Assembly: GCF_003334765.1 (NCBI RefSeq)
Contig: NZ_QOWT01000058.1
From: Escherichia coli
GTDB taxonomy: Bacteria > Pseudomonadota > Gammaproteobacteria > Enterobacterales > Enterobacteriaceae
DNA length: 10,459 nt
Reading direction: 5' to 3' (one strand)
In this document: positions 1-9,655 of the stretch, piece by piece
Numbering within the stretch: the first letter of the stretch is position 1
Layout: each line of letters starts with the position of its first letter
The notes under the pieces: model-generated
Told to the model about the DNA's origin: nothing
Seen by the model: the letters and a program-made list of their open reading frames with translations, nothing else
Databases searched by the model: none
Made by a program: the position numbers and the translations under genes

Positions 1-77
1 ACCGAGAAAGACACTGAAGTTCAAAACACCGAAAGAGATAATTGAAAGGGGTGTTGCATTGACAGATTGAATCTACA
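1..77 (+). mobile_element. insI: IS30 right end, truncated by the window edge: the last 22 codons of the IS30 transposase plus the 26-bp terminal inverted repeat
   Basis: Frame 2 (2-70) reads PRKTLKFKTPKEIIERGVALTD*, which matches the IS30 transposase C-terminus as I remember it. Positions 52-77 (tgttgcattgacagattgaatctaca) are the reverse complement of the remembered IS30 left IR TGTAGATTCAATTGGTCAACGCAACA at about 23/26 positions. All three frames hit stops before or at the junction. Confidence 0.8.
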
Positions 78-1016
78 ACAGCGTATTTTGCACAGGAGTC
101 GCTGAAAAATACGCGTTAATCGAACAATGGCGACAACAATTTCCCATTGAAGCGATGTGTCAGGTATTTGGTGTATCCAGGAGCGGTTATTACAACTGGG
201 TACAGCATGAACCCTCAGACAGAAAACAAAGTGATGAGCGGCTAAAACTGGAGATTAAGGTGGCACATATCCGCACTCGCGAAACATATGGAACCCGGCG
301 GCTCCAGACGGAGCTGGCAGAGAATGGCATCATCGTTGGTCGTGACCGACTGGCACGTCTTCGTAAGGAGCTAAGGCTACGCTGTAAGCAGAAACGCAAG
401 TTCAGAGCGACTACGAACTCGAACCACAATCTGCCAGTTGCGCCAAATCTGCTGAACCAGACGTTCGCTCCTACAGCACCAAATCAGGTCTGGGTGGCGG
501 ACCTGACGTATGTTGCCACACAGGAGGGATGGTTGTACCTCGCTGGCATCAAAGATGTTTATACGTGCGAAATTGTCGGCTACGCCATGGGAGAGCGCAT
601 GACAAAAGAGCTGACAGGTAAAGCCCTGTTTATGGCGCTCAGGAGCCAGCGCCCACCTGCCGGGCTAATCCACCACTCTGATCGAGGTTCACAGTACTGC
701 GCATACGATTACCGGGTCATACAGGAGCAGTTTGGTCTGAAAACATCAATGTCGCGTAAAGGTAACTGTTACGACAACGCTCCGATGGAAAGCTTCTGGG
801 GAACGCTGAAAAATGAGAGCCTGAGCCACTATCGTTTTAATAACCGGGATGAAGCCATCTCAGTAATACGGGAATACATTGAGATTTTCTACAATCGTCA
901 GCGTCGTCACTCTCGTCTGGGGAATATCTCCCCGGCAGCCTTCAGGGAAAAATATCATCAGATGGCTGCTTAAAAAAAGAACAAATGGTAGTGTCCGCTA
1001 TTGCCAGTACACCTCA
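78..1016 (+). mobile_element. IS3-family (IS600-like) insertion sequence, 5'-truncated by the IS30 insertion. It retains the orfA tail, all of orfB and the right end.
   Basis: The orfA-type tail ...AYFAQESLKNTR* ends at 117-119, but that frame is closed upstream of ~72 and no A-AAA-AAG slippery site is present. The orfB frame is open from 71 and reads ...KYALIEQWRQQFPIEAMCQVFGVSRSGYYNW. The right end gtgtccgctattgccagtaca(cctca) has the GCAATAG-GGACAC core and terminal CA typical of IS3-group IRs. The exact end is either 1011 or 1016. Confidence 0.8.
155..973 (+). CDS. IS3-family OrfB transposase (rve/DDE integrase core). In an intact element it would be expressed as an OrfAB frameshift fusion.
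   Basis: 272-aa ORF with DDE-region motifs WVADLTY, HHSDRGSQY and CYDNAPMESFWGTLK. The reading frame continues upstream of the ATG as far as the IS30 junction. Confidence 0.95.
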   Translation: MCQVFGVSRSGYYNWVQHEPSDRKQSDERLKLEIKVAHIRTRETYGTRRLQTELAENGIIVGRDRLARLRKELRLRCKQKRKFRATTNSNHNLPVAPNLLNQTFAPTAPNQVWVADLTYVATQEGWLYLAGIKDVYTCEIVGYAMGERMTKELTGKALFMALRSQRPPAGLIHHSDRGSQYCAYDYRVIQEQFGLKTSMSRKGNCYDNAPMESFWGTLKNESLSHYRFNNRDEAISVIREYIEIFYNRQRRHSRLGNISPAAFREKYHQMAA

Positions 1017-1447
1017 CGCTTCCAGTCTTCGCGGTCGTTGTCGATAACTTCTTTTTTTGCCCAGCGATGGATGCTGCCGTCAATGTTTCCGGCATCCACA
1101 TCACTAGGCCAGAGAGCGTAGGCCAGTTCGTCATCCAGTGTTTTCCATGTCTGCTTGTATTCGCGATGAATGGCAGCAATGACCGGGCTGATTTTTCCTG
1201 TTGAATTTTCAGTGTACTGTTGATTGGCTCTGGCGCGGGCGAGATCAACAACAGACGTGTATTTTCCGGTTTCCTTGCGTTCACCTTCGCGACGTTTTTT
1301 CCAGATGCGCATCTCTGCCTGAATTTCGGGCCATTTAGCACCAGGAATACATTTATGCTTAACCCACCCAATGGCGTGCAACTTAAGCTCCGGATACGGG
1401 TTATTCCCCTCTGAACAGGCGCGTAAGGACTGGCAAAACGCCCGCAA
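998..1447 (-). CDS. Hypothetical protein whose 3' end is cut by the IS3-family element. The last ~5 codons and the stop are IS-derived. The start is uncertain.
   Basis: This 149-codon ORF has a balanced, charged composition (…WPEIQAEMRIWKKRREGERKETGKYTSVVDLARARANQQY…DREDWKR|EVYWQ*), unlike the overlapping alternative frames. Its stop (998-1000) lies inside the IS terminal repeat. The first start in the ORF track is a TTG at 1447, preceded by GAGAG; an internal ATG sits at 1312. I do not recognise the family. Confidence 0.4.
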   Translation of the reverse strand: MRAFCQSLRACSEGNNPYPELKLHAIGWVKHKCIPGAKWPEIQAEMRIWKKRREGERKETGKYTSVVDLARARANQQYTENSTGKISPVIAAIHREYKQTWKTLDDELAYALWPSDVDAGNIDGSIHRWAKKEVIDNDREDWKREVYWQ

Positions 1448-1637
1448 AAAACTCTCGAGGGCAAAGGTGAAGAAACCTGCTGTGGTTGATCCGGACCTTA
1501 TCTGGTCATCACCTGACGGAGAAATACGTCGCTACGACAGTCGCCTAAACATAATCTGTCGCGAGTGCCGGAAGAGCGAAGTTATGCAGCGCATACTGGC
1601 TTTCTATCAGGGTAATTTTCAGGACGTGGCGCAGTGA
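1371..1637 (+). CDS. Ren-like protein; only the C-terminal part resembles lambda Ren. The start is uncertain (ATG 1371, or GTG 1467 preceded by GAGGG).
   Basis: The C-terminus ...NIICRECRKSEVMQRILAFYQG aligns with the remembered lambda Ren C-terminus ...NLVFKECRQSAAMKRVLAVYG at about 10/21 identities plus conservative changes. The stop overlaps the next gene's start as GTGA (1634-1637). The N-terminal 77 nt overlap the minus-strand ORF. Confidence 0.5.
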   Translation: MACNLSSGYGLFPSEQARKDWQNARKKLSRAKVKKPAVVDPDLIWSSPDGEIRRYDSRLNIICRECRKSEVMQRILAFYQGNFQDVAQ

Positions 1638-2123
1638 GTGCACCGGCAACCATTCTTGATATGTGCTGTGGCAGCCGCATGTTCTGGTTCGATAAGTCTG
1701 ACGAACGGGCGATATTCAGCGATATCAGAAAAGAAGGATACACATTACGCAATGGGAGACGCTTGATTATCAGCCCTGACATTATCGCAGATTTTCGTGC
1801 ATTATCATTTGCAGACGCATCTTTTTCGATGGTTGTATTAGACCCTCCGCATCTTGAGAGTGTTGGTGATAACGCCTGGATGGGAAAGAAATATGGACGG
1901 CTGAATAAAGATGCCTGGCGTGATGATTCGCGACAGAGATTTAAAGAAGCCTTTCGGGTGTTGAGGCCGCACGGCGTTCTGATTTTTTAATGGAATGAAA
2001 CGCAAATACCGGTAAGCCAGATTCTGGCACTGACAGACAGAAAACCTGTTATCTGTCAACGAACAGGGAAAAAACGATAAAACCCACTGGATTATTTTTA
2101 TGAAAGAGGCATCCAGTGAGTAG
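1634..2123 (+). pseudogene. SAM-dependent DNA methyltransferase (N6-adenine type, DPPH motif IV), interrupted by an in-frame TAA and probably by a later frameshift
   Basis: The motif I-like segment is ILDMCCGSRMFWFD and motif IV is VVLDPPH. TAA at 1988-1990 falls in ...HGVLIF*WNETQIPVSQILALTDRKPVICQRTGKKR*. At the A6 run (2069-2074), one fewer A would read on as ...GKNDKTHWIIFMKEASSE*, stopping at 2121-2123. Confidence 0.6.
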
Positions 2124-2252
2124 ATTCGTAAGGCTACAGATACGTATATCTGAATAATTAAATTCAGTTCTGTAAATAAAATTTAATCCTTAACCGGATG
2201 GATTTCTGCACCCTCAGAACATCAGGAGGCCGCCCGAAAGGGCGGTAGTGAA

Positions 2253-2435
2253 ATGCGAAAGTTCAAAATTATTATTGAAACGGGAATAGCTGGTGGAGAT
2301 TTTGAGGATGTATTCGAAGTGGACGATGACGCAACACCTGAGGAAATTCATGACGGAGCATAAGAAATTTTCTTTAACTACTGCAATTACTCATACCACG
2401 AAATAAAAGACGATGAGGAAGAACAAAGTGGCTGA
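2253..2435 (+). pseudogene. Small acidic phage ORF of 60 codons with an in-frame TAA at codon 37
   Basis: Reads MRKFKIIIETGIAGGDFEDVFEVDDDATPEEIHDGA*EIFFNYCNYSYHEIKDDEEEQSG*. The TAA is at 2361-2363. The 3' end overlaps the next ORF's start (GTGGCTGA). Confidence 0.45.
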
Positions 2436-2604
2436 TTTTTGTTCAGCTAAATATAACATCAGTTTTGAAGAGCGGGATGAACTATTAATGGACTATGGTG
2501 AGTTACGCGGTGGAAGTGCTGCTGATGTCGAATCCTAGCGTGATGACTATGAAGCGGGAAAAACTCCGGTCGAAGCATATTGTGATGAGTGGGGCGATGA
2601 ATGA
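2428..2604 (+). pseudogene. Small phage ORF with an in-frame TAG. The start is GTG 2428 or ATG 2413.
   Basis: Reads VADFCSAKYNISFEERDELLMDYGELRGGSAADVES*RDDYEAGKTPVEAYCDEWGDE*. The TAG is at 2536-2538. The stop overlaps the next start as ATGA (2601-2604). Confidence 0.4.
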
Positions 2605-2888
2605 GCGAGATTAATTATCAGGAAGGGCATGAAACGGCGGGGCAAGCAAAACCAGTGGCATGGCGATATCGCTACGTGAAAAAAGGCGTTACGGACTTTC
2701 AGGGGAAGTAGTGGTCTGGTGACTGGAAATATGTACCGAAAAAAGAGGATTGTAACGACAGGCCGAACTATCAAATTCAGGCCTTATTCACTGCCTCACC
2801 AGTCCCAGTTACATCAGAAGAACTGGTTAAAGCTGTGCACTTTTATGAACAACTAAAACGCGAAAATCCACCAACATCCGGCAACTAG
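2601..2888 (+). pseudogene. Small phage ORF of 95 codons with an in-frame TAG at codon 37
   Basis: Reads MSEINYQEGHETAGQAKPVAWRYRYVKKGVTDFQGK*WSGDWKYVPKKEDCNDRPNYQIQALFTASPVPVTSEELVKAVHFYEQLKRENPPTSGN*. The TAG is at 2709-2711. Confidence 0.45.
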
Positions 2889-3142
2889 ATTAATGGATTA
2901 ACTATGTCGGTTAAACGACCAGCCAACTGAAAAAGCGGAAACCTGATTACAGGTTGCCAGATAAGGCAATGAGCTACCTGGCGCGGAACGGACTGATAAG
3001 TATGGGGAATGTTTTACGATGAACCTTTAGACTAAAGAGTTTGTAACGCTATGTAAGTGATTTTTTCTGGTTTAGATATTTATATGTCCGGCCAAATTGA
3101 GGTGTGTTTAAATGTAATTGCACATTGATTGTAGGAGGAATA

Positions 3143-3322
3143 ATGAAAAACGCATTGCAGTTTTTGTTTGTTGCGTTCTGGTTGTTCGCATCATGTATGC
3201 CCATCATCTTCACAGCAAGGTATATGGAAAAAGTTGATGTTTTGATATTAATATTTGGATATATAAATGCCCTTTTTTTAGGGGTGTTCATGGCGGTCAT
3301 GTGCATTGAATACTGGCGGTAA
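3143..3322 (+). CDS. Small two-transmembrane-helix protein (59 aa), a moron-like accessory gene
   Basis: AGGAGG at 3133-3138 lies 4 nt before ATG 3143. The product is MKNALQFLFVAFWLFASCMPIIFTARYMEKVDVLILIFGYINALFLGVFMAVMCIEYWR, with two ~20-residue hydrophobic spans separated by a charged loop. The gene sits in a visibly AT-rich patch (~3040-3330). The ATG at 3104 from the ORF track has no SD. Confidence 0.6.
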   Translation: MKNALQFLFVAFWLFASCMPIIFTARYMEKVDVLILIFGYINALFLGVFMAVMCIEYWR

Positions 3323-3382
3323 ATACAGCGAACTCCATTGGTTTAGTTGGATATTTACTGTGCTGGACAAAAACGGTTTGCG

Positions 3383-3596
3383 GGGAAATCTTAGTTAAGT
3401 AGAATGACTGCGGGTGCTTGAGGCTATCTGCCTCGGGCATGGACACCAACGGCAGATAGAGAAAAGCCCCAGTTAACATTACGCGTCCTGCAAGACGCTT
3501 AACATTAATCTGAGGCCAATTTCATGCTAGACACATGTAGGTTAGCCTCTTACGTGCCGAAAGGCACGGAGAAGCAGGCTATTGTTAACACCAAGC
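3383..3596 (+). other. Hairpin-dense non-coding segment, a possible structured RNA or remnant, ending at the IS junction
   Basis: No ORF looks credible in any frame. There is a 9-bp stem at 3424-3432/3451-3459. A 5-bp stem at 3483-3487/3494-3498 is flanked by direct TTAACATTA copies (3473-3481 and 3499-3507). A 37-nt composite hairpin at 3544-3580 carries a GAAA tetraloop (AGCCT-CTT-a-CGTGCC GAAA GGCACG-gag-AAG-c-AGGCT). Confidence 0.3.
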
Positions 3597-5212
3597 TGTA
3601 ATGTCCCCTTTGAACCATTCTAAAATGTCCCCAGACAATTCTCTGGGGGATTTTTCATGATCAAAGAGACTGTTACGATGAGTCATAAGGAACTCCACCG
3701 ACTTCAGATTATTCAGGAACAAGCTGCGGCACGCATTGGCATTTCTATTCGGCAGGTTAAACGTCTGGTGCAACGGTATAGAAATGAAGGGCCTTCTGGT
3801 CTGGTTTCCCACCGACGTGGAAAGCGTCCTAATAATTCCTTTTCTACTGAATTCAGAGCAACAGTAATTTCACTCCTCAAAGGCCGTTACGCTGATTTTG
3901 GACCTACGTTTGCGTGCGAAAAATTGCGCGAGATACACGGTTTATCTTTATCCGTTGAAACTCTCAGAAAGTGGATGATAGAAGAGGGGTTATGGCGTGA
4001 ACGCCGTCGTAAAATTGCCCGTATATATCAACGCCGCATGCGACGACCATCTTACGGTGAACTGATCCAGATTGATGGCTCACCTCATGACTGGTTTGAA
4101 AATCGAGGCCCCAGATGTACACTGATCGTTTTCATTGATGATGCCACCAGTGCGTTGATGGCGTTGCGTTTTGTGCCTGCTGAAACAACCCGGGCTTACA
4201 TGGAAACCCTCCGGGGTTACCTTAATGATCATGGCGTACCGCTCGCTCTCTACTCTGATAGACACAGTATATTCAGGGTAAATAACCCAGAGCGGGAAGG
4301 TGAGCTGACCCAGTTCACTCGTGCGATAAAGACACTGGGCATCGAGCCAATCCATGCCAACAGCCCGCAGGCAAAAGGGCGGGTAGAGCGCGCCAATCAG
4401 ACACTACAGGACAGGCTGGTCAAAGAAATGCGGCTTCAGAATATCAGTGATATTGAAACAGCAAATGCATGGTTGCCGACCTTTATTGAAGCCTATAACA
4501 ACCGGTTCGCTACGTCGCCTCGTACTACTGATAATGCTCATCTTGATGTGCACCATTCTGAAGAGGAACTGGGTTATATCTTCAGCCTACAGGCGAAGCG
4601 CGTTCTGTCTAAAAATCTCACTTTCCAGTACAAAAGCAGTGCGTTTCAGGTACGCAGTGAGGGCCGGGGATATCGACTTAGGCATTCGGTTGTTACTGTA
4701 TGCGAGAACTTTGACGGTGAAATTAACGTTCTGTATGACGGGAAAGCGCTGGGCTGGGAAAAGTATGTTGATGGCCCGGAGCCTATACCACTGGATGATG
4801 AAAAGAGTGTCCATGAACGAGTGGATAATGCCCGTATTGATTTACGCTCAAAATACTATGTTAAACCTAAAGCTGACCATCCCTGGCTTACGCGCCGAAC
4901 GCAAAGTCATCAGCAAGTTAAGCCCCCGAAGTTACCTAAAAAGAAGCCTGATCCCGATAAAAAAGATTGAAACCAAGATCGATTCGGTTGAGTGCATATC
5001 CATTCATAGGGTAGATTCTTAAGTCGCGTTTCTGGTGTTCATTTTCGGGTGGTTTGTTACTTGTTTTACCGGGGATATGCCAGAAACGCGCTGAGTCAGT
5101 CTGGGCGGTGCGCGTAATGAGGCGTTATGGTAAATAGCCTATGCTAATGTCCGCTAAGAGCAAGAAGCGGAAGTTGGCAGTTTTGTGGACTGTCCCCACA
5201 AAAGTGACTACA
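3597..5212 (+). mobile_element. ISNCY-family (IS1202-group-like) insertion sequence; the boundaries are approximate
   Basis: It carries a single long DDE transposase ORF. The candidate ends are TGT... (3597) and ...ACA (5212), giving 1616 bp, which matches what I recall for the IS1202 group (TGT ends, 1.4-1.7 kb). The terminal repeats are only imperfect: TGTAATGTCCCCTTTG versus reverse-complement TGTAGTCACTTTTG, with a 2-nt gap. I found no flanking direct repeat. Confidence 0.5.
3657..4970 (+). CDS. ISNCY/IS1202-like transposase with an N-terminal HTH and an rve-type DDE core
   Basis: 437-aa ORF. The N-terminus MSHKELHRLQIIQ...GISIRQVKRLVQRYRNEGPSGLVSHRRGKRPNN is typical of proteins annotated as ISNCY family transposase. 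The DDE-region motifs are LIQIDGSPHDWF, ALYSDRHSIF and GRVERANQTLQDRL. GGGGGA lies 6 nt before ATG 3657; an alternative ATG is at 3678. Confidence 0.9.
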   Translation: MIKETVTMSHKELHRLQIIQEQAAARIGISIRQVKRLVQRYRNEGPSGLVSHRRGKRPNNSFSTEFRATVISLLKGRYADFGPTFACEKLREIHGLSLSVETLRKWMIEEGLWRERRRKIARIYQRRMRRPSYGELIQIDGSPHDWFENRGPRCTLIVFIDDATSALMALRFVPAETTRAYMETLRGYLNDHGVPLALYSDRHSIFRVNNPEREGELTQFTRAIKTLGIEPIHANSPQAKGRVERANQTLQDRLVKEMRLQNISDIETANAWLPTFIEAYNNRFATSPRTTDNAHLDVHHSEEELGYIFSLQAKRVLSKNLTFQYKSSAFQVRSEGRGYRLRHSVVTVCENFDGEINVLYDGKALGWEKYVDGPEPIPLDDEKSVHERVDNARIDLRSKYYVKPKADHPWLTRRTQSHQQVKPPKLPKKKPDPDKKD

Positions 5213-5368
5213 GAAATAGTTGCAATTCATAATTGATCATGGGTTGTCAGTTAAACTCGTGGCGATTTAAATAGACTAATTGGGAGTGCGTCCATTACTT
5301 ATATCTTGTAATGTTAACTATCAGAAATGATACAAAGATAATATGTCTTTAAAGAAAAGGCTGATGGC

Positions 5369-5392
5369 GAAAAGTGGCCCGATGAGGGCCAC
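5369..5392 (-). terminator. Rho-independent terminator downstream of flxA
   Basis: On the minus strand it reads GTGGCCC-tcatc-GGGCCAC followed by TTTTCGCC, starting 15 nt after the flxA stop. Confidence 0.6.
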
Positions 5393-5406
5393 AATACGGC
5401 TGTCAC

Positions 5407-5739
5407 TTAGACGTAAATATCAATGGTGCCAGCGGTATTTGTATCGTCTTTTTTCTCTTCTTTTTTATCAGGCTGAACTGTCGCGTCTTCATTCTTTTTC
5501 TCTGCCTGCTGCCTTAACAACTGCTCCAGTTGAGCCCAGAGGCTTTCAATTTGCTTCTGTACCAATGCAGCCATTTCTTTTTTCTGCTGTGTCGTCATCC
5601 CCTCTTCCGATGAGATTTTCCCAAGCTTTTCAGTCAGCACCTGAATTTGTCTTGTGATTTTGGCTATTTCTGATGTTCCTTCCGGGGCGGAGTTGTTTGA
5701 AATAACGGTTGAGGTATTTCCCTGAATTGTGACAGACAT
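5407..5739 (-). CDS. flxA: FlxA, a Qin prophage protein of the FliA regulon
   Basis: The 110-aa ORF MSVTIQGNTSTVISNNSAPEGTSEIAKITRQIQVLTEKLGK... matches K-12 FlxA as I remember it. It is preceded by a near-consensus sigma28 promoter. Confidence 0.9.
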   Translation of the reverse strand: MSVTIQGNTSTVISNNSAPEGTSEIAKITRQIQVLTEKLGKISSEEGMTTQQKKEMAALVQKQIESLWAQLEQLLRQQAEKKNEDATVQPDKKEEKKDDTNTAGTIDIYV

Positions 5740-5762
5740 AGATTTCTCCTTTTAAAAAAGCA

Positions 5763-5789
5763 CTATCGGCATGCACAAAAAAATCTTTA
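5763..5789 (-). promoter_or_regulatory. Sigma28 (FliA) promoter of flxA
   Basis: The minus strand reads TAAAGATT (5789-5782), then 11 nt, then GCCGATAG (5770-5763). The consensus is TAAAGTTT-N11-GCCGATAA. Confidence 0.8.
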
Positions 5790-5870
5790 ATCGTATTTCT
5801 TGTGTCATTAATTGTTTGATGTTCAGATTGTTTTCCTCGCGGGCTGGCGCGCCTCAGAAAGTAAAGCTTG

Positions 5871-5898
5871 TTGACAGGGGTAAACGTTCGGCAATAAT
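5871..5898 (+). promoter_or_regulatory. Candidate strong sigma70 promoter on the plus strand, in the flxA-ydfV intergenic region and reading antisense into ydfV, toward relBE
   Basis: TTGACA (5871-5876), a 16-nt spacer, then AATAAT (5893-5898). A 10-bp palindrome CCGCATGCGG follows at 5905-5914. Confidence 0.4.
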
Positions 5899-5941
5899 TT
5901 TCTGCCGCATGCGGGTGTTGCATAAAACGTGTTACGTTCCT

Positions 5942-6247
5942 TTATCGACAGGTCAGGTCACCGCTCACCCGCCGACGAGAAAGCAACACTGACATGCTAA
6001 AGCAAAAAATAGATGAATAAGTTGAGTTGTGCATATGTAGCCTGACCGTCACAAAGTATATGGTGTCTGTACCAGTAAGATGATGGCCGGACTCTTTAAA
6101 AACGAGCTGACCTGCACAATACAGGATGGACTTAGCAATGGCTGCTCCTGGCACAAAGCGGACAGTGATCACCGTTCTTACGACTACTTTCTGACTTCCT
6201 TCGTGACTTGCCCTAAGCATGTTGTAGTGCGATACTTGTAATGACAT
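5942..6247 (-). CDS. ydfV: YdfV, an uncharacterised Qin prophage ORF. Coding status is doubtful.
   Basis: The 101-aa ORF matches the length and position of K-12 ydfV as I remember it. No recognisable SD precedes the ATG, the start codon lies inside the relBE operator, and the composition is unremarkable. Confidence 0.4.
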   Translation of the reverse strand: MSLQVSHYNMLRASHEGSQKVVVRTVITVRFVPGAAIAKSILYCAGQLVFKESGHHLTGTDTIYFVTVRLHMHNSTYSSIFCFSMSVLLSRRRVSGDLTCR

Positions 6248-6259
6248 TTGTAATTACAA
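6208..6259 (+). promoter_or_regulatory. relBE promoter and relO operator
   Basis: TTGCCC (6208-6213), a 17-nt spacer, then GATACT (6231-6236). TTGTAAT repeats sit at 6236-6242 and 6248-6254, and the palindrome TTGTAATTACAA at 6248-6259 lies just upstream of the relB SD. Confidence 0.7.
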
Positions 6260-6271
6260 GAGGTGTAAGAC

Positions 6272-6511
6272 ATGGGTAGCATTAACCTGCGTATTGACGA
6301 TGAACTTAAAGCGCGTTCTTACGCCGCGCTTGAAAAAATGGGTGTAACTCCTTCTGAAGCGCTTCGTCTCATGCTCGAGTATATCGCTGACAATGAACGC
6401 TTGCCGTTCAAACAGACACTCCTGAGTGATGAAGATGCTGAACTTGTGGAGATAGTGAAAGAACGGCTTCGTAATCCTAAGCCAGTACGTGTGACGCTGG
6501 ATGAACTCTGA
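6272..6511 (+). CDS. relB: RelB antitoxin (type II TA)
   Basis: The 79-aa sequence MGSINLRIDDELKARSYAALEKMGVTPSEALRLMLEYIADNERLPFKQ... is recognised as K-12 RelB. Its stop overlaps the relE ATG (TGATG). Confidence 0.97.
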   Translation: MGSINLRIDDELKARSYAALEKMGVTPSEALRLMLEYIADNERLPFKQTLLSDEDAELVEIVKERLRNPKPVRVTLDEL

Positions 6512-6798
6512 TGGCGTATTTTCTGGATTTTGACGAGCGGGCACTAAAGGAATGGCGAAAGCTGGGCTCGACGGTACGTGAACAGTTGAAAAAGAAGCTG
6601 GTTGAAGTACTTGAGTCACCCCGGATTGAAGCAAACAAGCTCCGTGGTATGCCTGATTGTTACAAGATTAAGCTCCGGTCTTCAGGCTATCGCCTTGTAT
6701 ACCAGGTTATAGACGAGAAAGTTGTCGTTTTCGTGATTTCTGTTGGGAAAAGAGAACGCTCGGAAGTATATAGCGAGGCGGTCAAACGCATTCTCTGA
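6511..6798 (+). CDS. relE: RelE, a ribosome-dependent mRNA interferase toxin
   Basis: The 95-aa sequence MAYFLDFDERALKEWRKLGSTVREQLKKKLVEVLESPRIEANKLRGMPDCYKIKLRSSGYRLVYQVIDEKVVVFVISVGKRERSEVYSEAVKRIL is recognised as K-12 RelE. Confidence 0.97.
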   Translation: MAYFLDFDERALKEWRKLGSTVREQLKKKLVEVLESPRIEANKLRGMPDCYKIKLRSSGYRLVYQVIDEKVVVFVISVGKRERSEVYSEAVKRIL

Positions 6799-6869
6799 AC
6801 CAAAGCATGACATCTCTGTTTCGCACCGAAGGTGACACTTCTGCTTTGCGTTGACAGGAGAAGCAGGCT

Positions 6870-7025
6870 ATGAAGCAGCAAAAGGCGATGTTAATCGCCC
6901 TGATCGTCATCTGTTTAACCGTCATAGTGACGGCACTGGTAACGAGGAAAGACCTCTGCGAGGTACGAATCCGAACCGGCCAGACGGAGGTCGCTGTCTT
7001 CACAGCTTACGAACCTGAGGAGTAA
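6870..7025 (+). CDS. hokD: HokD (RelF), a Hok-family membrane toxin. It falls below the ORF-track length cutoff.
   Basis: Manual translation gives MKQQKAMLIALIVICLTVIVTALVTRKDLCEVRIRTGQTEVAVFTAYEPEE* (51 aa). GGAG lies upstream at 6856-6859. The hok-type context ggtgacacttctgctttgcgttgacaggagaagcaggctATG is present. Confidence 0.9.
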   Translation: MKQQKAMLIALIVICLTVIVTALVTRKDLCEVRIRTGQTEVAVFTAYEPEE

Positions 7026-7092
7026 GAGACCCGGCGGGGGAGAAATCCCTCGCCACCTCTGATGTGGCAGGCATCCTCAACGCACCCGCACT

Positions 7093-7120
7093 TAACCCGC
7101 TTCGGCGGGTTTTTGTTTTT
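7093..7120 (+). terminator. Rho-independent terminator ending the relBE-hokD transcript
   Basis: AACCCGC-ttcg-GCGGGTT followed by TTTTGTTTTTATTTT. Confidence 0.8.
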
Positions 7121-7132
7121 ATTTTCAACGCG

Positions 7133-7162
7133 TTTGAAGTTCTGGACGGTGCCGGAATAGAA
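7133..7162 (+). promoter_or_regulatory. Candidate sigma70 promoter upstream of rem
   Basis: TTGAAG (7133-7138), an 18-nt spacer, then TAGAAT (7157-7162), about 80 nt upstream of the rem ATG. Confidence 0.3.
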
Positions 7163-7241
7163 TCAAAAATACTTAAGTAGCGCGCAGGGATAAGAGGGAT
7201 GGTCCCTTAAAGGGGAGAGCTAATTATCCGGAAGGATTCTG

Positions 7242-7493
7242 ATGATGAACATCGAAGAACTGCGTAAAATTTTTTGTGAAGATGGCCTCTATGCTGTGTG
7301 CGTTGAAAATGGAAATCTTGTTAGTCATTACCGCATTATGTGTTTGCGAAAGAATGGGGCTGCGTTAATTAATTTTGTGGATGCTCGGGTCACGGACGGA
7401 TTTATCTTGCGCGAAGGTGAGTTTGTCACTTCATTACAGGCATTGAAAGAGATCGGAATAAAAGCTGGCTTTTCTGCTTTTTCAGGAGAATAA
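7242..7493 (+). CDS. rem: Rem, a Qin prophage protein of unknown function
   Basis: The 83-aa ORF MMNIEELRKIFCEDGLYAVCVENGNLVSHYRIMCLRKNGAALINF... matches K-12 Rem in size and position as I remember it. GGAAGG lies 7 nt upstream of the ATG. Confidence 0.85.
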   Translation: MMNIEELRKIFCEDGLYAVCVENGNLVSHYRIMCLRKNGAALINFVDARVTDGFILREGEFVTSLQALKEIGIKAGFSAFSGE

Positions 7494-7559
7494 ACTCATC
7501 TACAATCTTGCGCGGGGCTGAACTCCCGCTGAGTAACACCGTGCCACCGGAGAAAACCG

Positions 7560-7838
7560 ATGGCACGCAACGCAAAATATTACAATTCTGATAATTCGCC
7601 CGTTCTTGCCTGCACGCACGGGCGGTATTCTCACGCATTCAAGTCTGAATGGTTCCAGCACCCTCCATGCACTGCAGAACAGGCCGAATGGCTGATTCAT
7701 TCTTACCGCAGGCGCGGGTTCGAGGTTAAGAAAGCTCTCAGTCTCGACTATCGGCACTGGATAATCTCTGTCAGGCTGCCTTATTCCGAACGCCCACCAC
7801 GTGCGTCCCGCACTTTCCAGCAACGGATCTGGAGGTAA
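7560..7838 (+). CDS. Hypothetical 92-aa protein, translationally coupled to ydfU
   Basis: GGAG (7549-7552) lies 7 nt before ATG 7560. The stop TAA (7836-7838) is 1 nt before the ydfU GTG, and the ydfU SD GGAGG (7831-7835) lies within the last codons of this ORF. The sequence …CTAEQAEWLIHSYRRRGFEVKKALSLDYRHWIISVRLP… looks protein-like. Confidence 0.55.
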   Translation: MARNAKYYNSDNSPVLACTHGRYSHAFKSEWFQHPPCTAEQAEWLIHSYRRRGFEVKKALSLDYRHWIISVRLPYSERPPRASRTFQQRIWR

Positions 7839-7839
7839 C

Positions 7840-8889
7840 GTGCGGGTATTACTTAGACCTGTTCTGGTGCCTGAGCTTGGGCTGGTGGTCCTTAAGCCGG
7901 GCCGTGAATCCATACAGATATTTCATAATCCTCGAGTGCTGGTGGAACCGGAACCAAAAAGCATGCGTAATCTGCCATCCGGAGTCGTTCCTGCCGTTCG
8001 CCAGCCGCTGGCGGAAGACAAAACATTGCTGCCGTTTTTTAGTAACGAACGGGTGATTCGTGCTGCTGGCGGCGTTGGCGCATTGTCCGACTGGCTATTA
8101 CGTCATGTTACATCCTGCCAGTGGCCTAATGGCGATTACCATCACACTGAAACAGTCATTCACCGTTATGGTACCGGCGCAATGGTGTTGTGCTGGCACT
8201 GCGACAACCAACTGCGTGACCAGACATCGGAATCACTGGAGCTGCTTGCTCAACAAAATCTGACAGCATGGGTGATTGACGTCATCCGTCACGCAATAAG
8301 CGGTACGCAGGAGCGGGAATTATCTTTGGCTGAATTATCCTGGTGGGCGGTCTGCAATCAGGTGGTGGATGCACTACCTGAGGCTGTATCGCGTCGTTCG
8401 CTGGGATTACCAGCGGAAAAAATCTGCTCGGTGTACCGCGAAAGCGACATCGTACCGGGAGAGCAGACCGCCACCAGCATATTGAAACAACGCACAAAAA
8501 ATCTTGCACCGTTGCCTTACGCCCACCAGCAACAAAAATCACCACAGGAAAAGACGGTGGTAAGCATCACCGTTGATCCAGAGTCTCCGGAATCTTTCAT
8601 GAAGCTGCCTAAACGTCGCCGCTGGGTTAAGGAGAAATACACACGTTGGGTTAAGACACAGCCGTGTGCTTGCTGCGGTATGCCAGCCGACGATCCGCAT
8701 CATCTGATTGGTCACGGGCAGGGCGGAATGGGAACAAAAGCACATGATCTCTTTGTGTTGCCTTTGTGCAGAAAGCATCACAACGAGCTGCATACGGATA
8801 CAGTGGCATTTGAAGATAAGTATGGCTCCCAACTGGAGCTGATATTTCGTTTTATCGATCGCGCGCTGGCAATTGGCGTACTGGCGTAA
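7840..8889 (+). CDS. ydfU: YdfU, a DUF968-type protein with a C-terminal HNH-like Cys/His motif
   Basis: A GTG start at 7840 gives 349 aa, the K-12 YdfU length as I remember it. The C-terminus reads QPCACCGMPADDPHHLIGHGQGGMGTKAHDLFVLPLCRKHHNELH (CxxC...HH...CxxHHxxxH). Confidence 0.85.
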   Translation: MRVLLRPVLVPELGLVVLKPGRESIQIFHNPRVLVEPEPKSMRNLPSGVVPAVRQPLAEDKTLLPFFSNERVIRAAGGVGALSDWLLRHVTSCQWPNGDYHHTETVIHRYGTGAMVLCWHCDNQLRDQTSESLELLAQQNLTAWVIDVIRHAISGTQERELSLAELSWWAVCNQVVDALPEAVSRRSLGLPAEKICSVYRESDIVPGEQTATSILKQRTKNLAPLPYAHQQQKSPQEKTVVSITVDPESPESFMKLPKRRRWVKEKYTRWVKTQPCACCGMPADDPHHLIGHGQGGMGTKAHDLFVLPLCRKHHNELHTDTVAFEDKYGSQLELIFRFIDRALAIGVLA

Positions 8890-8902
8890 GTGGAGAACGA
8901 GC

Positions 8903-9655
8903 ATGAACCTTGAAGCCTTACCAAAATATTACTCCCCAAAATCTCCAAAATTGAGCGATGACGCTCCAGCGACAGGCACCGGTTGTTTAACAATTACGGA
9001 TGTAATGGCAGCGCAGGGGATGGTGCAGTCGAAAGCACCACTTGGGTTGGCCTTATTTCTGGCAAAAGTTGGTGTTCAGGACCCTCAGTTTGCGATTGAA
9101 GGCCTGCTAAATTACGCGATGGCACTGGATAACCCGACATTGAACAAATTGAGTGAAGAAATCCGGTTACAGATTATTCCTTACCTCGTGAGTTTTGCCT
9201 TTGCTGATTACTCCAGGTCTGCGGCAAGTAAGGCTCGCTGTGAGCATTGTTCAGGTACGGGATTTTATAATGTATTGCGCGAAGTGGTGAAACACTACAG
9301 ACGCGGGGAATCTGTAATCAAGGAAGAATGGGTGAAGGAACTATGTCAGCATTGCCATGGTAAGGGCGAAGCCAGCACAGCGTGCAGAGGGTGTAAGGGT
9401 AAAGGGATTGTTCTGGATGAAAAAAGAACCCGGTTTCATGGCGTACCGGTATATAAGATTTGTGGGCGTTGTAATGGAAACCGGTTTAGTCGTTTACCGA
9501 CCACGCTGGCACGACGTCATGTCCAGAAGCTGGTACCAGACCTGACCGATTATCAGTGGTATAAGGGGTATGCGGACGTCATTGGTAAACTGGTAACAAA
9601 GTGCTGGCAGGAAGAAGCATACGCGGAAGCGCAATTGAGGAAGGTGACGAGATAA
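8903..9655 (+). CDS. quuQ: Q-family late-gene antiterminator homologue with a DnaJ-like zinc-finger array
   Basis: ATG 8903 is preceded by GGAGAACGAGC and gives 250 aa, beginning MNLEALPKYYSPKSPKLSDD... There are four CxxCxGxG-like repeats: CEHCSGTG, CQHCHGKG, CRGCKGKG and CGRCNGNR. The gene lies just upstream of a late-type promoter and terminator. Confidence 0.85.
   Translation: MNLEALPKYYSPKSPKLSDDAPATGTGCLTITDVMAAQGMVQSKAPLGLALFLAKVGVQDPQFAIEGLLNYAMALDNPTLNKLSEEIRLQIIPYLVSFAFADYSRSAASKARCEHCSGTGFYNVLREVVKHYRRGESVIKEEWVKELCQHCHGKGEASTACRGCKGKGIVLDEKRTRFHGVPVYKICGRCNGNRFSRLPTTLARRHVQKLVPDLTDYQWYKGYADVIGKLVTKCWQEEAYAEAQLRKVTR

What the first reader, a model, noticed from the sequence alone, without database searches (positions are those of the whole stretch)
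3040..3330. AT-rich islet encoding a 59-aa two-TM protein with a consensus SD, a moron-like accessory gene
This patch is much more AT-rich than its flanks. It contains one short ORF with a perfect AGGAGG SD and two predicted TM helices joined by a short charged loop (TARYMEKVD). Small two-TM proteins in prophage accessory slots are often superinfection-exclusion or abortive-infection effectors, immunity proteins or membrane toxins. Its position directly upstream of the structured segment suggests a possible protein-RNA pair. I do not recognise the sequence.
Basis: partly seen in the sequence, partly recalled or inferred. Interest (0 to 1): 0.5.

Follow-up and report, generated by a model that had tools for sequence, protein, structure and literature searches.

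The report
Unannotated small prophage membrane protein gene
The 59-codon ORF is very probably a real but unannotated gene for a tiny two-helix membrane protein of E. coli lambdoid prophages, and the "structured RNA" next to it is the orphaned leader of a hok/sok toxin-antitoxin locus, not its partner.

Summary
Window 3026-3411 is an AT-rich islet (GC 0.32-0.40 against 0.47-0.51 beside it). It contains one + strand ORF (3143-3322, 59 aa) with an AGGAGG Shine-Dalgarno site and two hydrophobic helices.

The window is a Qin-type lambdoid prophage. The islet lies in its nin region, directly upstream of a hok/sok locus.

Within this lineage the evidence is ambiguous. All copies are at least 98% identical, segregating sites run 6 nonsynonymous to 1 synonymous, codon usage looks like that of chance ORFs, and RefSeq annotates nothing.

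An exhaustive HMMER search found a second lineage (41% amino-acid, 59% nucleotide identity) in a Rac-type prophage remnant carried by 1045 of 5426 complete E. coli genomes. It has the same 59 codons and no indels. It is the only frame open in both lineages, dN/dS is about 0.19 (p = 9e-5), and it also sits beside a hok remnant. I therefore rate it a genuine small inner-membrane protein gene (about 0.85). Its function is unknown and it matches no described family.

The "protein-RNA pair" idea fails. Segment 3412-3583 is the hokD leader/sok (Rfam, 104 bits). It was cut from its CDS by a 3.27-kb IS1202-like transposon carrying relBE-flxA, a side finding.

The parts
3026..3411 (.). AT-rich, G/T-skewed islet. 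It is present or absent as a module between the last nin-region gene and the hok promoter.
   Evidence: Composition. Homology with ORF-less hok phages (933W, 606R7) starts only at 3366-3369. The islet is at least 98% identical in 1584 of 5426 complete E. coli genomes.
3133..3138 (+). Shine-Dalgarno site AGGAGG, 4 nt upstream of the ATG. It is AGGGGG in about 16% of copies.
   Evidence: Sequence. Polymorphism at 3136.
3143..3322 (+). CDS of a 59-aa protein (MKNALQFLFVAFWLFASCMPIIFTARYMEKVDVLILIFGYINALFLGVFMAVMCIEYWR) plus TAA. The start is the ATG at 3143, not the upstream GTG at 3104.
   Evidence: Lineage-2 homologue P0042/P0037: 59 aa, 41% identity, no indels, dN/dS 0.19, Fisher p = 8.7e-5, the only frame open in both lineages. 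Lineage 2 has an in-frame TAA 18 nt before its ATG (sequence printed), which fixes the start.
3152..3214 (+). Predicted TM helix 1 (about residues 4-24). Invariant residues in both lineages: W13, S17, C18, P20, I21, I22, T24.
   Evidence: Hydropathy. Alignment. AF2 helix 2-26.
3215..3238 (+). Short polar loop (residues 25-32, ARYMEKVD). It is net neutral here and acidic in lineage 2, so it is inferred to be periplasmic.
   Evidence: Alignment. Topology is an inference from the positive-inside rule.
3239..3307 (+). Predicted TM helix 2 (about residues 33-55). Invariant residues: L36, F38, G39, N42, A43, L44. It is followed by the conserved C-terminus E56-x-W58-R59.
3049..3306 (-). Antisense 85-aa ORF that some phage annotators call 'hornerin' or 'hypothetical protein'. 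It is not a gene.
   Evidence: Annotated. Common haplotypes put stop codons in it (3069 Q>*, 3116 L>*). The same frame has 2 stops in lineage 2. It has no SD.
3378..3405 (+). Context: hok promoter (TTGCGG, 16 nt spacer, TAGAAT), starting 56 nt after the ORF stop.
   Evidence: Read from the sequence. It lies within the block conserved with hokW of 933W. The assignment is inferred.
3412..3583 (+). Context: the 'structured segment'. It is the hokD mRNA leader (mok start ATG at 3524) with the antisense sok gene, now orphaned.
   Evidence: Rfam RF01794, 104.1 bits, E = 2.4e-23, full model. IS-free relatives continue directly into the hokD CDS.
3583..6856 (+). Context: 3,274-bp IS1202-like (ISEsa1-family) transposon. 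It carries the transposase (3657-4970), ydfW, flxA, ydfV, relB and relE. It is flanked by the 15-bp duplication GGAGAAGCAGGCTAT (3568-3582 and 6857-6871) and splits the hok locus at its start codon.
   Evidence: The same unit, with a different 16-bp duplication, lies inside another hok-family gene on plasmid pDEC9B-1.
6870..7025 (+). Context: the hokD CDS that belongs to the leader at 3412-3582.
   Evidence: 98.9% identical to the CDS that follows the leader in IS-free L005.

Best explanation
Window 3143-3322 is a genuine but unannotated protein-coding gene. It encodes a 59-residue helical-hairpin protein of the cytoplasmic membrane: two TM helices, a short polar loop outside, and the basic N-terminus (MK-) and C-terminus (-WR) inside.

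It belongs to a small family restricted to Escherichia/Shigella, with two lineages. Lineage 1 is this one, in the nin region of Qin-type lambdoid prophages. Lineage 2 is in a decayed Rac-type prophage remnant between ttcA and uspF.

The gene has no recognisable promoter or terminator of its own. It points the same way as the early-right operon. It is therefore most likely made from the early-right (pR-type) read-through transcript when the prophage is induced, and translated from its strong SD.

The conserved residues are polar or helix-packing ones embedded in the helices (W13, S17-C18-x-P20, T24, G39, N42-A43, E56-x-W-R). The surrounding hydrophobic positions vary freely. I therefore infer that it works by helix-helix association inside the membrane, with itself or with a host or phage membrane protein. 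That would make it a small membrane modulator rather than an enzyme.

It is not the partner of the adjacent structured RNA, which belongs to hok/sok.

Shown: ORF, SD, hydrophobic helices, family, purifying selection, context. Inferred: topology, time of expression, mode of action.
For: (1) A diverged homologue exists. Exhaustive phmmer over 1.84 billion representatives found P0037 (59 aa, 41% identity over residues 1-59, E = 1.2e-8). Its common form P0042 is on at least 1000 contigs and in 1045 of 5426 complete E. coli genomes.

(2) The two loci are syntenic, so the DNA is homologous independently of the protein match. LygF/DUF977 and DUF1627 fragments lie upstream. A hok 3' remnant (80% over 66 nt) lies 55 nt downstream.

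(3) The coding signature between lineages is clear.
- Nucleotide identity is 59.4% over 180 nt with no indel, and start and stop are the same.
- Differences by codon position are 25/17/31.
- pS = 0.72, pN = 0.34, dN/dS about 0.19. Fisher test on synonymous against nonsynonymous differences: p = 8.7e-5.
- In simulation, 73 random substitutions keep an exact 59-codon ORF only 0.25% of the time.
- The flanks align only with several indels.
- Only frame +0 is open in both lineages, and amino-acid identity is highest there (25 against 14-18).

(4) The ORF varies less than its immediate flanks in both lineages.
- Lineage 1: 7 segregating sites in 180 nt against 18 in 206 nt, p = 0.063.
- Lineage 2: none of the 8 differences that define the 98.7% haplotype falls in the ORF.

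(5) It has a strong SD and AAA as second codon. ORF plus SD arises in 0.14% of shuffles. Two TM-like segments arise in 4% of chance ORFs of this composition.

(6) All 37 full-length copies retrieved through a flank-only DNA pattern are intact.

(7) In lineage 2 it is the only intact ORF among pseudogenised neighbours (int', DUF1627', hok', sit').
Against: - There is no direct evidence of transcription or translation. K-12 lacks the locus, so the K-12 small-protein surveys cannot speak to it.
- The peptide is absent from the searchable supplements of two small-ORF surveys and from full-text search.
- Within lineage 1, segregating sites run 6 nonsynonymous to 1 synonymous, while neighbouring genes run about 1:1 to 1:2.5.
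- Codon usage scores like chance ORFs and lies below 98% of real coding chunks.
- The G/T-rich composition extends into the non-coding part of the islet, so hydrophobicity is partly a by-product of composition.
- RefSeq/PGAP annotates nothing at either lineage in any row listed.
- Frameshifted versions at the T8 run exist in the protein database, though they may be assembly errors.
- Only two lineages are known, so selection is inferred from a single pairwise comparison.
- No promoter was found, so expression in lysogens and in the lineage-2 remnant is unexplained.
- The SD spacing of 4 nt is short, and the SD core is polymorphic.
Confidence: 0.7

Rival explanations
1. Non-coding AT-rich spacer. 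The ORF is a chance product of G/T-rich DNA, which has few stop codons and many hydrophobic codons. The SD-like hexamer is fortuitous, and any peptide made has no selected function.
For: - Within lineage 1, segregating sites run 6 N to 1 S.
- The codon-usage score equals the mean for chance ORFs.
- The composition skew is the same in the non-coding part of the islet.
- An ORF of at least 59 codons arises in 7-16% of shuffles.
- PGAP does not call it.
- No family matches.
Against: - The lineage-2 homologue keeps exactly 59 codons at 59% nucleotide identity with no indel, an outcome seen in 0.25% of simulations.
- dN/dS is 0.19, p = 8.7e-5.
- It is the only frame open in both lineages.
- The flanks carry indels.
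- ORF plus SD arises in 0.14% of shuffles.
- Shallow-divergence N:S ratios are known to be inflated (my own knowledge: Rocha et al. 2006).
Confidence: 0.12
2. Hok-linked membrane partner. The protein modulates the neighbouring Hok toxin in the membrane, either as an immunity factor or as a helper that sets the timing of lysis. Prophage hok/sok would then be a three-part module.
For: - Both lineages sit immediately 5' of a hok locus or hok remnant.
- In hok phages that lack this ORF (933W, 606R7), the same slot holds another unannotated small TM ORF of 27 aa (MTWPEAF...ICRW[RG]) that abuts the hok promoter.
- Prophage hokW is induced before endolysin and aids phage release (PMC8621323).
Against: - The adjacency in the two lineages may reflect one inherited arrangement, which would be a single observation.
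- The ORF stays intact where hok is destroyed (lineage 2) or severed from its leader (this window).
- hok/sok works without it on R1 and in Sp5 constructs.
- The 27-aa ORF is not detectably homologous, and its N:S is 6:3.
- There are no interaction data.
Confidence: 0.12
3. Stand-alone defence or toxic effector. This would be a superinfection-exclusion, abortive-infection or membrane-depolarising protein expressed from the prophage.
For: - It is a small two-TM protein in an accessory, compositionally foreign slot of a prophage.
- It is retained intact in a decayed prophage remnant fixed in 1045 genomes. That would fit a host-beneficial function.
Against: - No match in PADLOC, PHROGs or Pfam.
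- No own promoter was detected for expression in lysogens.
- No antisense RNA or antitoxin partner of its own (Rfam).
- A fold search gives only generic hairpins at E >= 1.
Confidence: 0.2
4. The real gene is the antisense 85-aa ORF (3306-3049, minus strand), as annotated in phages PhiR42_1 and vB_EcoS-640R1.
For: It is the longest ORF in the islet and is called by two phage annotations. Its codon score is marginally higher, 0.05.
Against: - Common haplotypes carry premature stops (Q80*, L64*).
- The same frame has 2 stops in lineage 2.
- It has no SD, it runs against the operon, and no family matches.
Confidence: 0.01

Closest known systems
Small prophage- or phage-encoded membrane proteins that act by exclusion (for example T4 Imm, HK97 gp15, P22 SieA). 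Named from my own knowledge, not tested here.
   Same: They are tiny, mostly hydrophobic inner-membrane proteins encoded in accessory slots of (pro)phages, with no enzymatic domain. They are presumed to work through membrane protein-protein contacts.
   Different: There is no sequence or profile similarity (Pfam, PHROGs and PADLOC give no hit). Those proteins are expressed in the lysogen or early from their own signals, and no promoter was found here. No exclusion phenotype has been tested.
Class II holins / pinholins (S21-type, two TM domains). Named from my own knowledge.
   Same: The size is similar (about 60-70 aa), with two TM helices, N-in/C-in topology and a lambdoid phage origin.
   Different: This gene is in the nin/early region next to hok, not in the lysis cassette downstream of Q beside an endolysin. 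It has no holin HMM hit. It lacks the highly charged C-terminal tail and ends in only E-Y-W-R.
Hok/Gef type I toxins and the hok/sok locus (Rfam RF01794; Pfam Hok_Gef)
   Same: It is the immediate neighbour. Both are small hydrophobic inner-membrane peptides carried by the same prophage module, and the linkage is conserved in both lineages.
   Different: This protein is not homologous to Hok, which has one TM helix, about 50 aa and conserved cysteines. The ORF lies upstream of the hok promoter and outside the hok mRNA and the Rfam model. It has no antisense RNA of its own. It persists without a functional hok.
Unannotated enterobacterial small membrane proteins found by ribosome profiling or comparative smORF surveys (10.1101/511675; PMC11188072)
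   Same: It is a short ORF missed by annotation pipelines. It is hydrophobic, has a strong SD, and is conserved only within Enterobacteriaceae.
   Different: It is absent from K-12 and so from the K-12 surveys. It was not found in the text-held supplements of PMC11188072 or PMC5597208. At 59 aa with two TM helices it is larger than most such proteins.

Membership tests
Bona fide protein-coding gene | ORF length, start and stop conserved in a diverged homologue, with no indels | tested here: met
   Lineage 2 has 59 codons, 59.4% nucleotide identity and 0 indels. The expected rate under random substitution is 0.25%.
Bona fide protein-coding gene | Purifying selection on the protein (dN/dS well below 1) | tested here: met
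   Between lineages dN/dS is about 0.19, Fisher p = 8.7e-5. Within lineage 1, 6 N to 1 S is uninformative or contrary at no more than 2% divergence.
Bona fide protein-coding gene | Ribosome-binding site at a suitable distance from the start | tested here: met
   AGGAGG at 3133-3138 with a 4-nt spacer. The variant is AGGGGG. Lineage 2 has AGGGA 6 nt upstream of its ATG.
Bona fide protein-coding gene | Host-like or phage-like codon usage | tested here: not met
   The log-odds score is -0.03 per codon, equal to the mean for chance ORFs and below 98% of real coding chunks.
Bona fide protein-coding gene | Direct evidence of translation | not testable with these tools
   No Ribo-seq or proteomics data are available here. 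The literature searches were negative.
Phage moron (autonomous accessory transcription unit) | Base composition different from the surrounding phage genes | tested here: met
   GC is 0.32-0.37 against 0.47-0.51. The islet is present or absent next to hok in related phages.
Phage moron (autonomous accessory transcription unit) | Own promoter upstream and own terminator downstream | tested here: not met
   Zero promoter-like sites in 2850-3700 and no + strand terminator between the ORF and hok. This is a consensus scan only, so weak promoters are not excluded.
[quoted passage not shown] | Lies within the hok mRNA / matches the Rfam sok-hok leader model or Pfam Hok_Gef | tested here: not met
   The Rfam hit covers 3412-3583 only. 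The ORF ends at 3322, upstream of the hok promoter. There is no Pfam hit.
Holin (class II / pinholin) | Match to a holin profile; location in the lysis cassette beside an endolysin | tested here: not met
   No Pfam or PHROGs hit at E <= 1. The gene lies in the early/nin region.
Known anti-phage defence or superinfection-exclusion proteins | Match to PADLOC, PHROGs or Pfam models of such proteins | tested here: not met
   No hit.
Known anti-phage defence or superinfection-exclusion proteins | Protection phenotype against phage | not testable with these tools
   This requires plaque assays.
Type I toxin (small membrane toxin with cis-antisense RNA) | Own antisense or overlapping sRNA antitoxin | tested here: inconclusive
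   No Rfam family overlaps the ORF in either lineage. No minus-strand promoter-like site was found in the window. Undescribed sRNAs cannot be excluded.

The most novel reading that the evidence does not exclude
The 59-aa protein is a membrane partner of the Hok toxin. The same would hold for the unrelated 27-aa single-TM ORF that occupies the same slot in 933W-type phages. Lambdoid-prophage hok/sok modules would then be three-component systems: toxin, antisense RNA and a small membrane modulator. The modulator would tune Hok pore formation and the timing of induced lysis.
Probability: 0.1. Interest if true: 0.7.

Novelty: new member of a known kind. Interest (0 to 1): 0.4.

Why it matters
If the gene is real, a conserved small inner-membrane protein is missing from RefSeq annotation. 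Lineage 1 is in 1584 and lineage 2 in 1045 of 5426 complete E. coli genomes. Together that is somewhere between 29% and 48% of complete genomes, depending on overlap. Carriers include ST131, O104:H4, ETEC H10407 and the type strain.

K-12 has deleted the locus, so the gene has escaped all K-12-based small-protein surveys.

It is a clean, testable case. Shallow population data and codon statistics argued against coding, and one diverged paralogue settled the question the other way.

Its constant position at the 5' edge of prophage hok loci gives a concrete hypothesis to test about how prophage Hok toxins are controlled.

Tried and rejected
Searches that found nothing:
- Pfam, NCBIfam, PHROGs and PADLOC scans of the ORF and of the antisense ORF.
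- PDB sequence profile search.
- Foldseek of the AF2 model against BFVD and PDB, which gave only generic TM hairpins at E >= 1.
- DNA ('distant') and tblastn searches of phages and plasmids, which found only copies at least 97.5% identical.
- One genome per GTDB species, which returned only E. coli/Shigella records. One of them (L010) is an indel-ridden assembly and was ignored.
- A profile search with both lineages, which found no third lineage.
- Literature: the peptide string in full text, and in the supplements of the Sakai intergenic small-gene paper and the Enterobacteriaceae microproteome preprint.

Hypotheses considered and rejected:
- The islet might encode a prophage Pas sRNA, because Sok is frequent near PasA. 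I rejected this: Pas genes lie next to the holin/lysozyme operon and carry intrinsic terminators, and neither applies here.
- The antisense 85-aa 'hornerin' ORF, rejected because of stops in common haplotypes and in lineage 2.
- Programmed slippage at the T8 run inside the ORF, rejected because lineage 2 has no homopolymer there.
- Homology between the 27-aa ORF of 933W/606R7 and helix 2 of the 59-aa protein, not supported: about 4 of 27 identities by eye, with only the terminal W-R shared.

Inconclusive:
- Codon-usage scoring and within-lineage N:S pointed away from coding, but they are underpowered at no more than 2% divergence.
Full report
**Where we are**

The window is a Qin-type lambdoid prophage of E. 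coli. Positions 1388-9635 are 99.6% identical to E. coli ATCC 8739, and the 761-bp query around the finding (2900-3660) is 100% identical to ATCC 8739 and to phage PhiR42_1. The gene order there is dicA/dicC, ydaT-like, O-like, DUF977, methyltransferase, small nin-region genes, then relBE-hokD-rem-ydfU-Q. The finding sits at the end of the small nin-region genes. All of those genes are on the + strand.

**The observation**

The patch is AT-rich. GC is 0.316 at 3026-3142, 0.372 in the ORF and 0.404 at 3323-3411. Beside it, GC is 0.468 upstream and 0.509 downstream.

The ORF is 3143-3322 on the + strand, 59 codons plus TAA. AGGAGG lies at 3133-3138, 4 nt from the ATG.

Hydropathy gives two segments well above 1.6, at residues 7-25 and 33-52. 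AlphaFold2 on a shallow alignment gives helices 2-26 and 28-58, with mean pLDDT 74.

Shuffling tests show how much of this is chance:
- A + strand ATG ORF of at least 59 codons arises in 7% of dinucleotide-preserving shuffles of the islet.
- ORF plus AGGAG/GGAGG arises in 0.14%.
- Two TM-like segments arise in only 4% of chance ORFs of this composition.

- The SD spacing is short.
- The SD core is polymorphic (3136 A>G in about 16% of copies).
- The G/T-rich skew also covers the non-coding part of the islet, so hydrophobicity is partly compositional.

**The 'structured segment' is hok/sok**

Rfam places RF01794 (the hok leader with the antisense sok gene) at 3412-3583, full length, at 104 bits. 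In relatives without the insertion sequence, this leader runs straight into an annotated hokD CDS. In those relatives, homology with the window stops exactly at 3582.

In the window the CDS is 3.3 kb away, at 6870-7025.

**Is the ORF a gene? The shallow evidence is ambiguous**

- The islet occurs in 1584 of 5426 complete E. coli genomes. All full-length copies listed are at least 98.1% identical, and RefSeq annotates nothing over it in any of the 60 rows listed.
- Some phage annotators call the antisense 85-aa ORF instead.
- No diverged copy exists in phage or plasmid collections, or in one genome per GTDB species.
- A word-seeded search of 5.8 billion proteins returned only near-identical or truncated E. 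coli/Shigella entries.
- I pooled 133 copies: 80 IMG/VR loci, 44 metagenome contigs retrieved with a flank-only pattern, and several genomes. The ORF has 7 segregating sites (6 nonsynonymous, 1 synonymous). The 206 nt of islet flank have 18. The ORF has no indels.
- The 6:1 ratio fits neutrality and rejects omega <= 0.1 (p <= 0.004). Neighbouring genes in the same loci run about 1:1 to 1:2.5.
- The lower site density in the ORF is marginal (p = 0.063).
- A codon-usage log-odds model trained on long ORFs of these loci scores the ORF like chance ORFs.
- K-12 has deleted the region between ydfX and ydfW, so no K-12 expression data apply.
- The literature searches found nothing.

At this point the honest answer would have been 'cannot tell'.

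**The decisive evidence: a second lineage**

An exhaustive phmmer run over 1.84 billion cluster representatives found P0037. It is 59 aa and 41% identical over residues 1-59, with E = 1.2e-8. Its common form is P0042 (MRKILMYLCISIWIVISCVPIILTSEYLTEASIMALMFGHANALCIGVFISIIYIECWR). P0042 is on at least 1000 contigs and in 1045 of 5426 complete genomes as a single copy, again unannotated.

P0042 lies between ttcA and uspF, in a decayed Rac-type prophage remnant. The order is int fragment, DUF1627 fragment, LygF fragment, the ORF, a hok 3' remnant (80% identity over 66 nt, starting 55 nt after the stop), then sit pseudogenes. The synteny (LygF, then the ORF, then hok) shows that the two loci are homologous DNA, independently of the protein match.

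Between the two lineages the coding signature is clear:
- The ORF is 59.4% identical over 180 nt with no indel, and has the same start and stop.
- Differences by codon position are 25/17/31.
- pS = 0.72 and pN = 0.34, giving dN/dS of about 0.19. Synonymous against nonsynonymous differences give p = 8.7e-5.
- Seventy-three random substitutions keep an exact 59-codon ORF in only 0.25% of simulations.
- The flanks align only with several indels.
- Frame +0 is the only frame open in both lineages, and it has the highest amino-acid identity.
- In lineage 2, the 8 differences that define the 98.7% haplotype all fall outside the ORF.
- An in-frame TAA 18 nt before the lineage-2 ATG fixes the start at the ATG, giving 59 aa rather than the 72-aa GTG version in some GenBank entries.

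Invariant residues are W13, S17, C18, P20, I21, I22, T24, L36, F38, G39, N42, A43, L44, E56, W58 and R59. These are mostly polar or helix-packing residues, and the bulk hydrophobic positions vary. That is the usual pattern for a membrane protein under selection.

The antisense ORF is rejected. Common haplotypes truncate it, and lineage 2 has stops in that frame.

I put the probability of a genuine protein-coding gene at about 0.85.

**How it probably works**

Shown:
- A strong SD.
- Two hydrophobic helices.
- Co-orientation with the early-right operon.
- No promoter-like site and no + strand terminator around it.

Inferred:
- It is transcribed by read-through from the early-right promoter on induction.
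- It inserts as an N-in/C-in hairpin. The termini are basic, and the loop is neutral here and acidic in lineage 2.
- It acts through intramembrane helix-helix contacts.

No Pfam, NCBIfam, PHROGs, PADLOC or PDB match exists. Fold searches return only generic hairpins. The biological role is therefore open. The options, with my rough weights, are:
- Exclusion, defence or toxicity: about 0.2.
- A Hok-linked modulator: about 0.12.
- Some other membrane modulator.

For a Hok link:
- Both lineages abut hok.
- Phages that carry hok without this ORF (933W, 606R7) have another unannotated 27-aa single-TM ORF in the same slot. Its ATG overlaps the stop of the upstream gene, and its TAA abuts the hok -35 region.
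- Prophage hokW is induced before endolysin and helps phage release (PMC8621323).

Against a Hok link:
- The ORF survives intact where hok is destroyed or severed.
- hok/sok functions without it.
- The adjacency may be a single inherited arrangement.

**Comparison with known families, and novelty**

It works like the small hydrophobic accessory proteins of phages. I considered three groups:
- Imm/Sie-type exclusion proteins: every sequence test for membership failed, and no exclusion phenotype could be tested here.
- Pinholins: every testable membership feature failed.
- Ribosome-profiling-era small membrane proteins: it resembles these in kind but belongs to none of the described examples.

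It is an undescribed family restricted to E. coli/Shigella, so I class it as a new member of a known kind. Interest is moderate. The gene is widespread yet unannotated, and it has a testable link to hok, but nothing so far suggests a new principle.

**Side finding**

Positions 3583-6856 form a 3,274-bp IS1202-like (ISEsa1-family) transposon. Its cargo is ydfW, flxA, ydfV and relBE.
- It has 26-bp imperfect terminal inverted repeats (19 of 26 matches). No other 26-mer in the window matches the left end that well.
- It is flanked by a 15-bp duplication of the hok SD and start region.
- The identical unit sits in IncI1 plasmid pDEC9B-1, inside a different hok-family gene. There it has a different 16-bp duplication, again over the SD and ATG.

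This explains the classical K-12 relBE-hokD arrangement. It also suggests a target preference for hok start regions. Published surveys list ISEsa1 as 1609 bp with no detectable duplication, and report only 'hypothetical' passenger genes in five other family members.

Noticed in passing
window 3568-6871 (element 3583-6856; duplications 3568-3582 and 6857-6871); L147 1501-4801: relBE, flxA, ydfV and ydfW are cargo of a 3,274-bp IS1202-like (ISEsa1-family) transposon with 26-bp imperfect inverted repeats (19 of 26). It is inserted at the SD/start codon of hokD with a 15-bp target duplication. The same unit lies in IncI1 plasmid pDEC9B-1 inside a different hok-family gene, with a different 16-bp duplication (TGGAGGGGCTATGATG), again over the SD/ATG. 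That implies independent transposition and an apparent preference for hok start regions. At least 80% of the unit is present in 760 of 5426 complete genomes, and there are 134 places on plasmids. Published surveys list ISEsa1 as 1609 bp with no detectable duplication.
   Followed up: partly
window 3369-3582 and 6856-7120: The hokD (relF) gene of the classical relBE-hokD operon still has its 'missing' promoter, mok start and sok antisense gene. They sit 3.3 kb upstream as an orphaned leader (Rfam sok, 104 bits). K-12 lost this piece in a deletion running from ydfX into the transposase (K-12 homology resumes at window 4786).
   Followed up: yes
L149 (phage 933W) 1419-1502; L148 (phage vB_EcoM-606R7) 3644-3727: There is an unannotated 27-aa single-TM ORF, MTWPEAF[AT][NT]VG[TI][VA]MAV[VA]LVVYSICRW[RG], immediately upstream of the hokW-type promoter. 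Its ATG overlaps the TGA of the upstream gene (ATGA), and its TAA abuts the conserved AAAACGGTTTGCGGG. It occupies the slot that the 59-aa ORF fills in the window. The two copies differ at 13 of 84 nt (6 nonsynonymous and 3 synonymous codons), which is too few to judge selection.
   Followed up: partly
L138 3984-6169 (lineage-2 locus, ttcA-uspF intergenic island); L146: This is a decayed Rac-type prophage remnant at the ttcA site in 1045 of 5426 complete E. coli genomes, including type strain ATCC 11775. The order is int fragment, DUF1627 fragment, LygF fragment, the intact 59-aa ORF, a hok 3' remnant, then sit (metal ABC transporter) pseudogenes. The small ORF is the only intact reading frame in the remnant.
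   Followed up: partly
window 1-1397: The left end of the window is not colinear with ATCC 8739. An IS3-family OrfB transposase ORF lies at 155-973. It is followed by a segment on the opposite strand (1119-1397) that matches the K-12 ydfE region. That segment joins the 3' part of the DUF977 gene at about 1388. This suggests an IS-associated inversion or deletion in this strain.
   Followed up: no
window 2601-3022: The nin-region gene just upstream of the islet is a pseudogene in this prophage type ('frameshifted; internal stop' in ATCC 8739). It is intact (104-129 aa) in IS-free relatives. The DUF7167 gene further upstream is also broken here.
   Followed up: no
window 3270-3285: There is a C3-T8 homopolymer run inside the ORF. 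Several database variants (55-aa proteins ending ...GVHGGHVH) are frameshifted exactly here. They come mostly from automated assemblies of read archives, so they may be sequencing errors rather than real alleles. Lineage 2 has no homopolymer at this position.
   Followed up: partly
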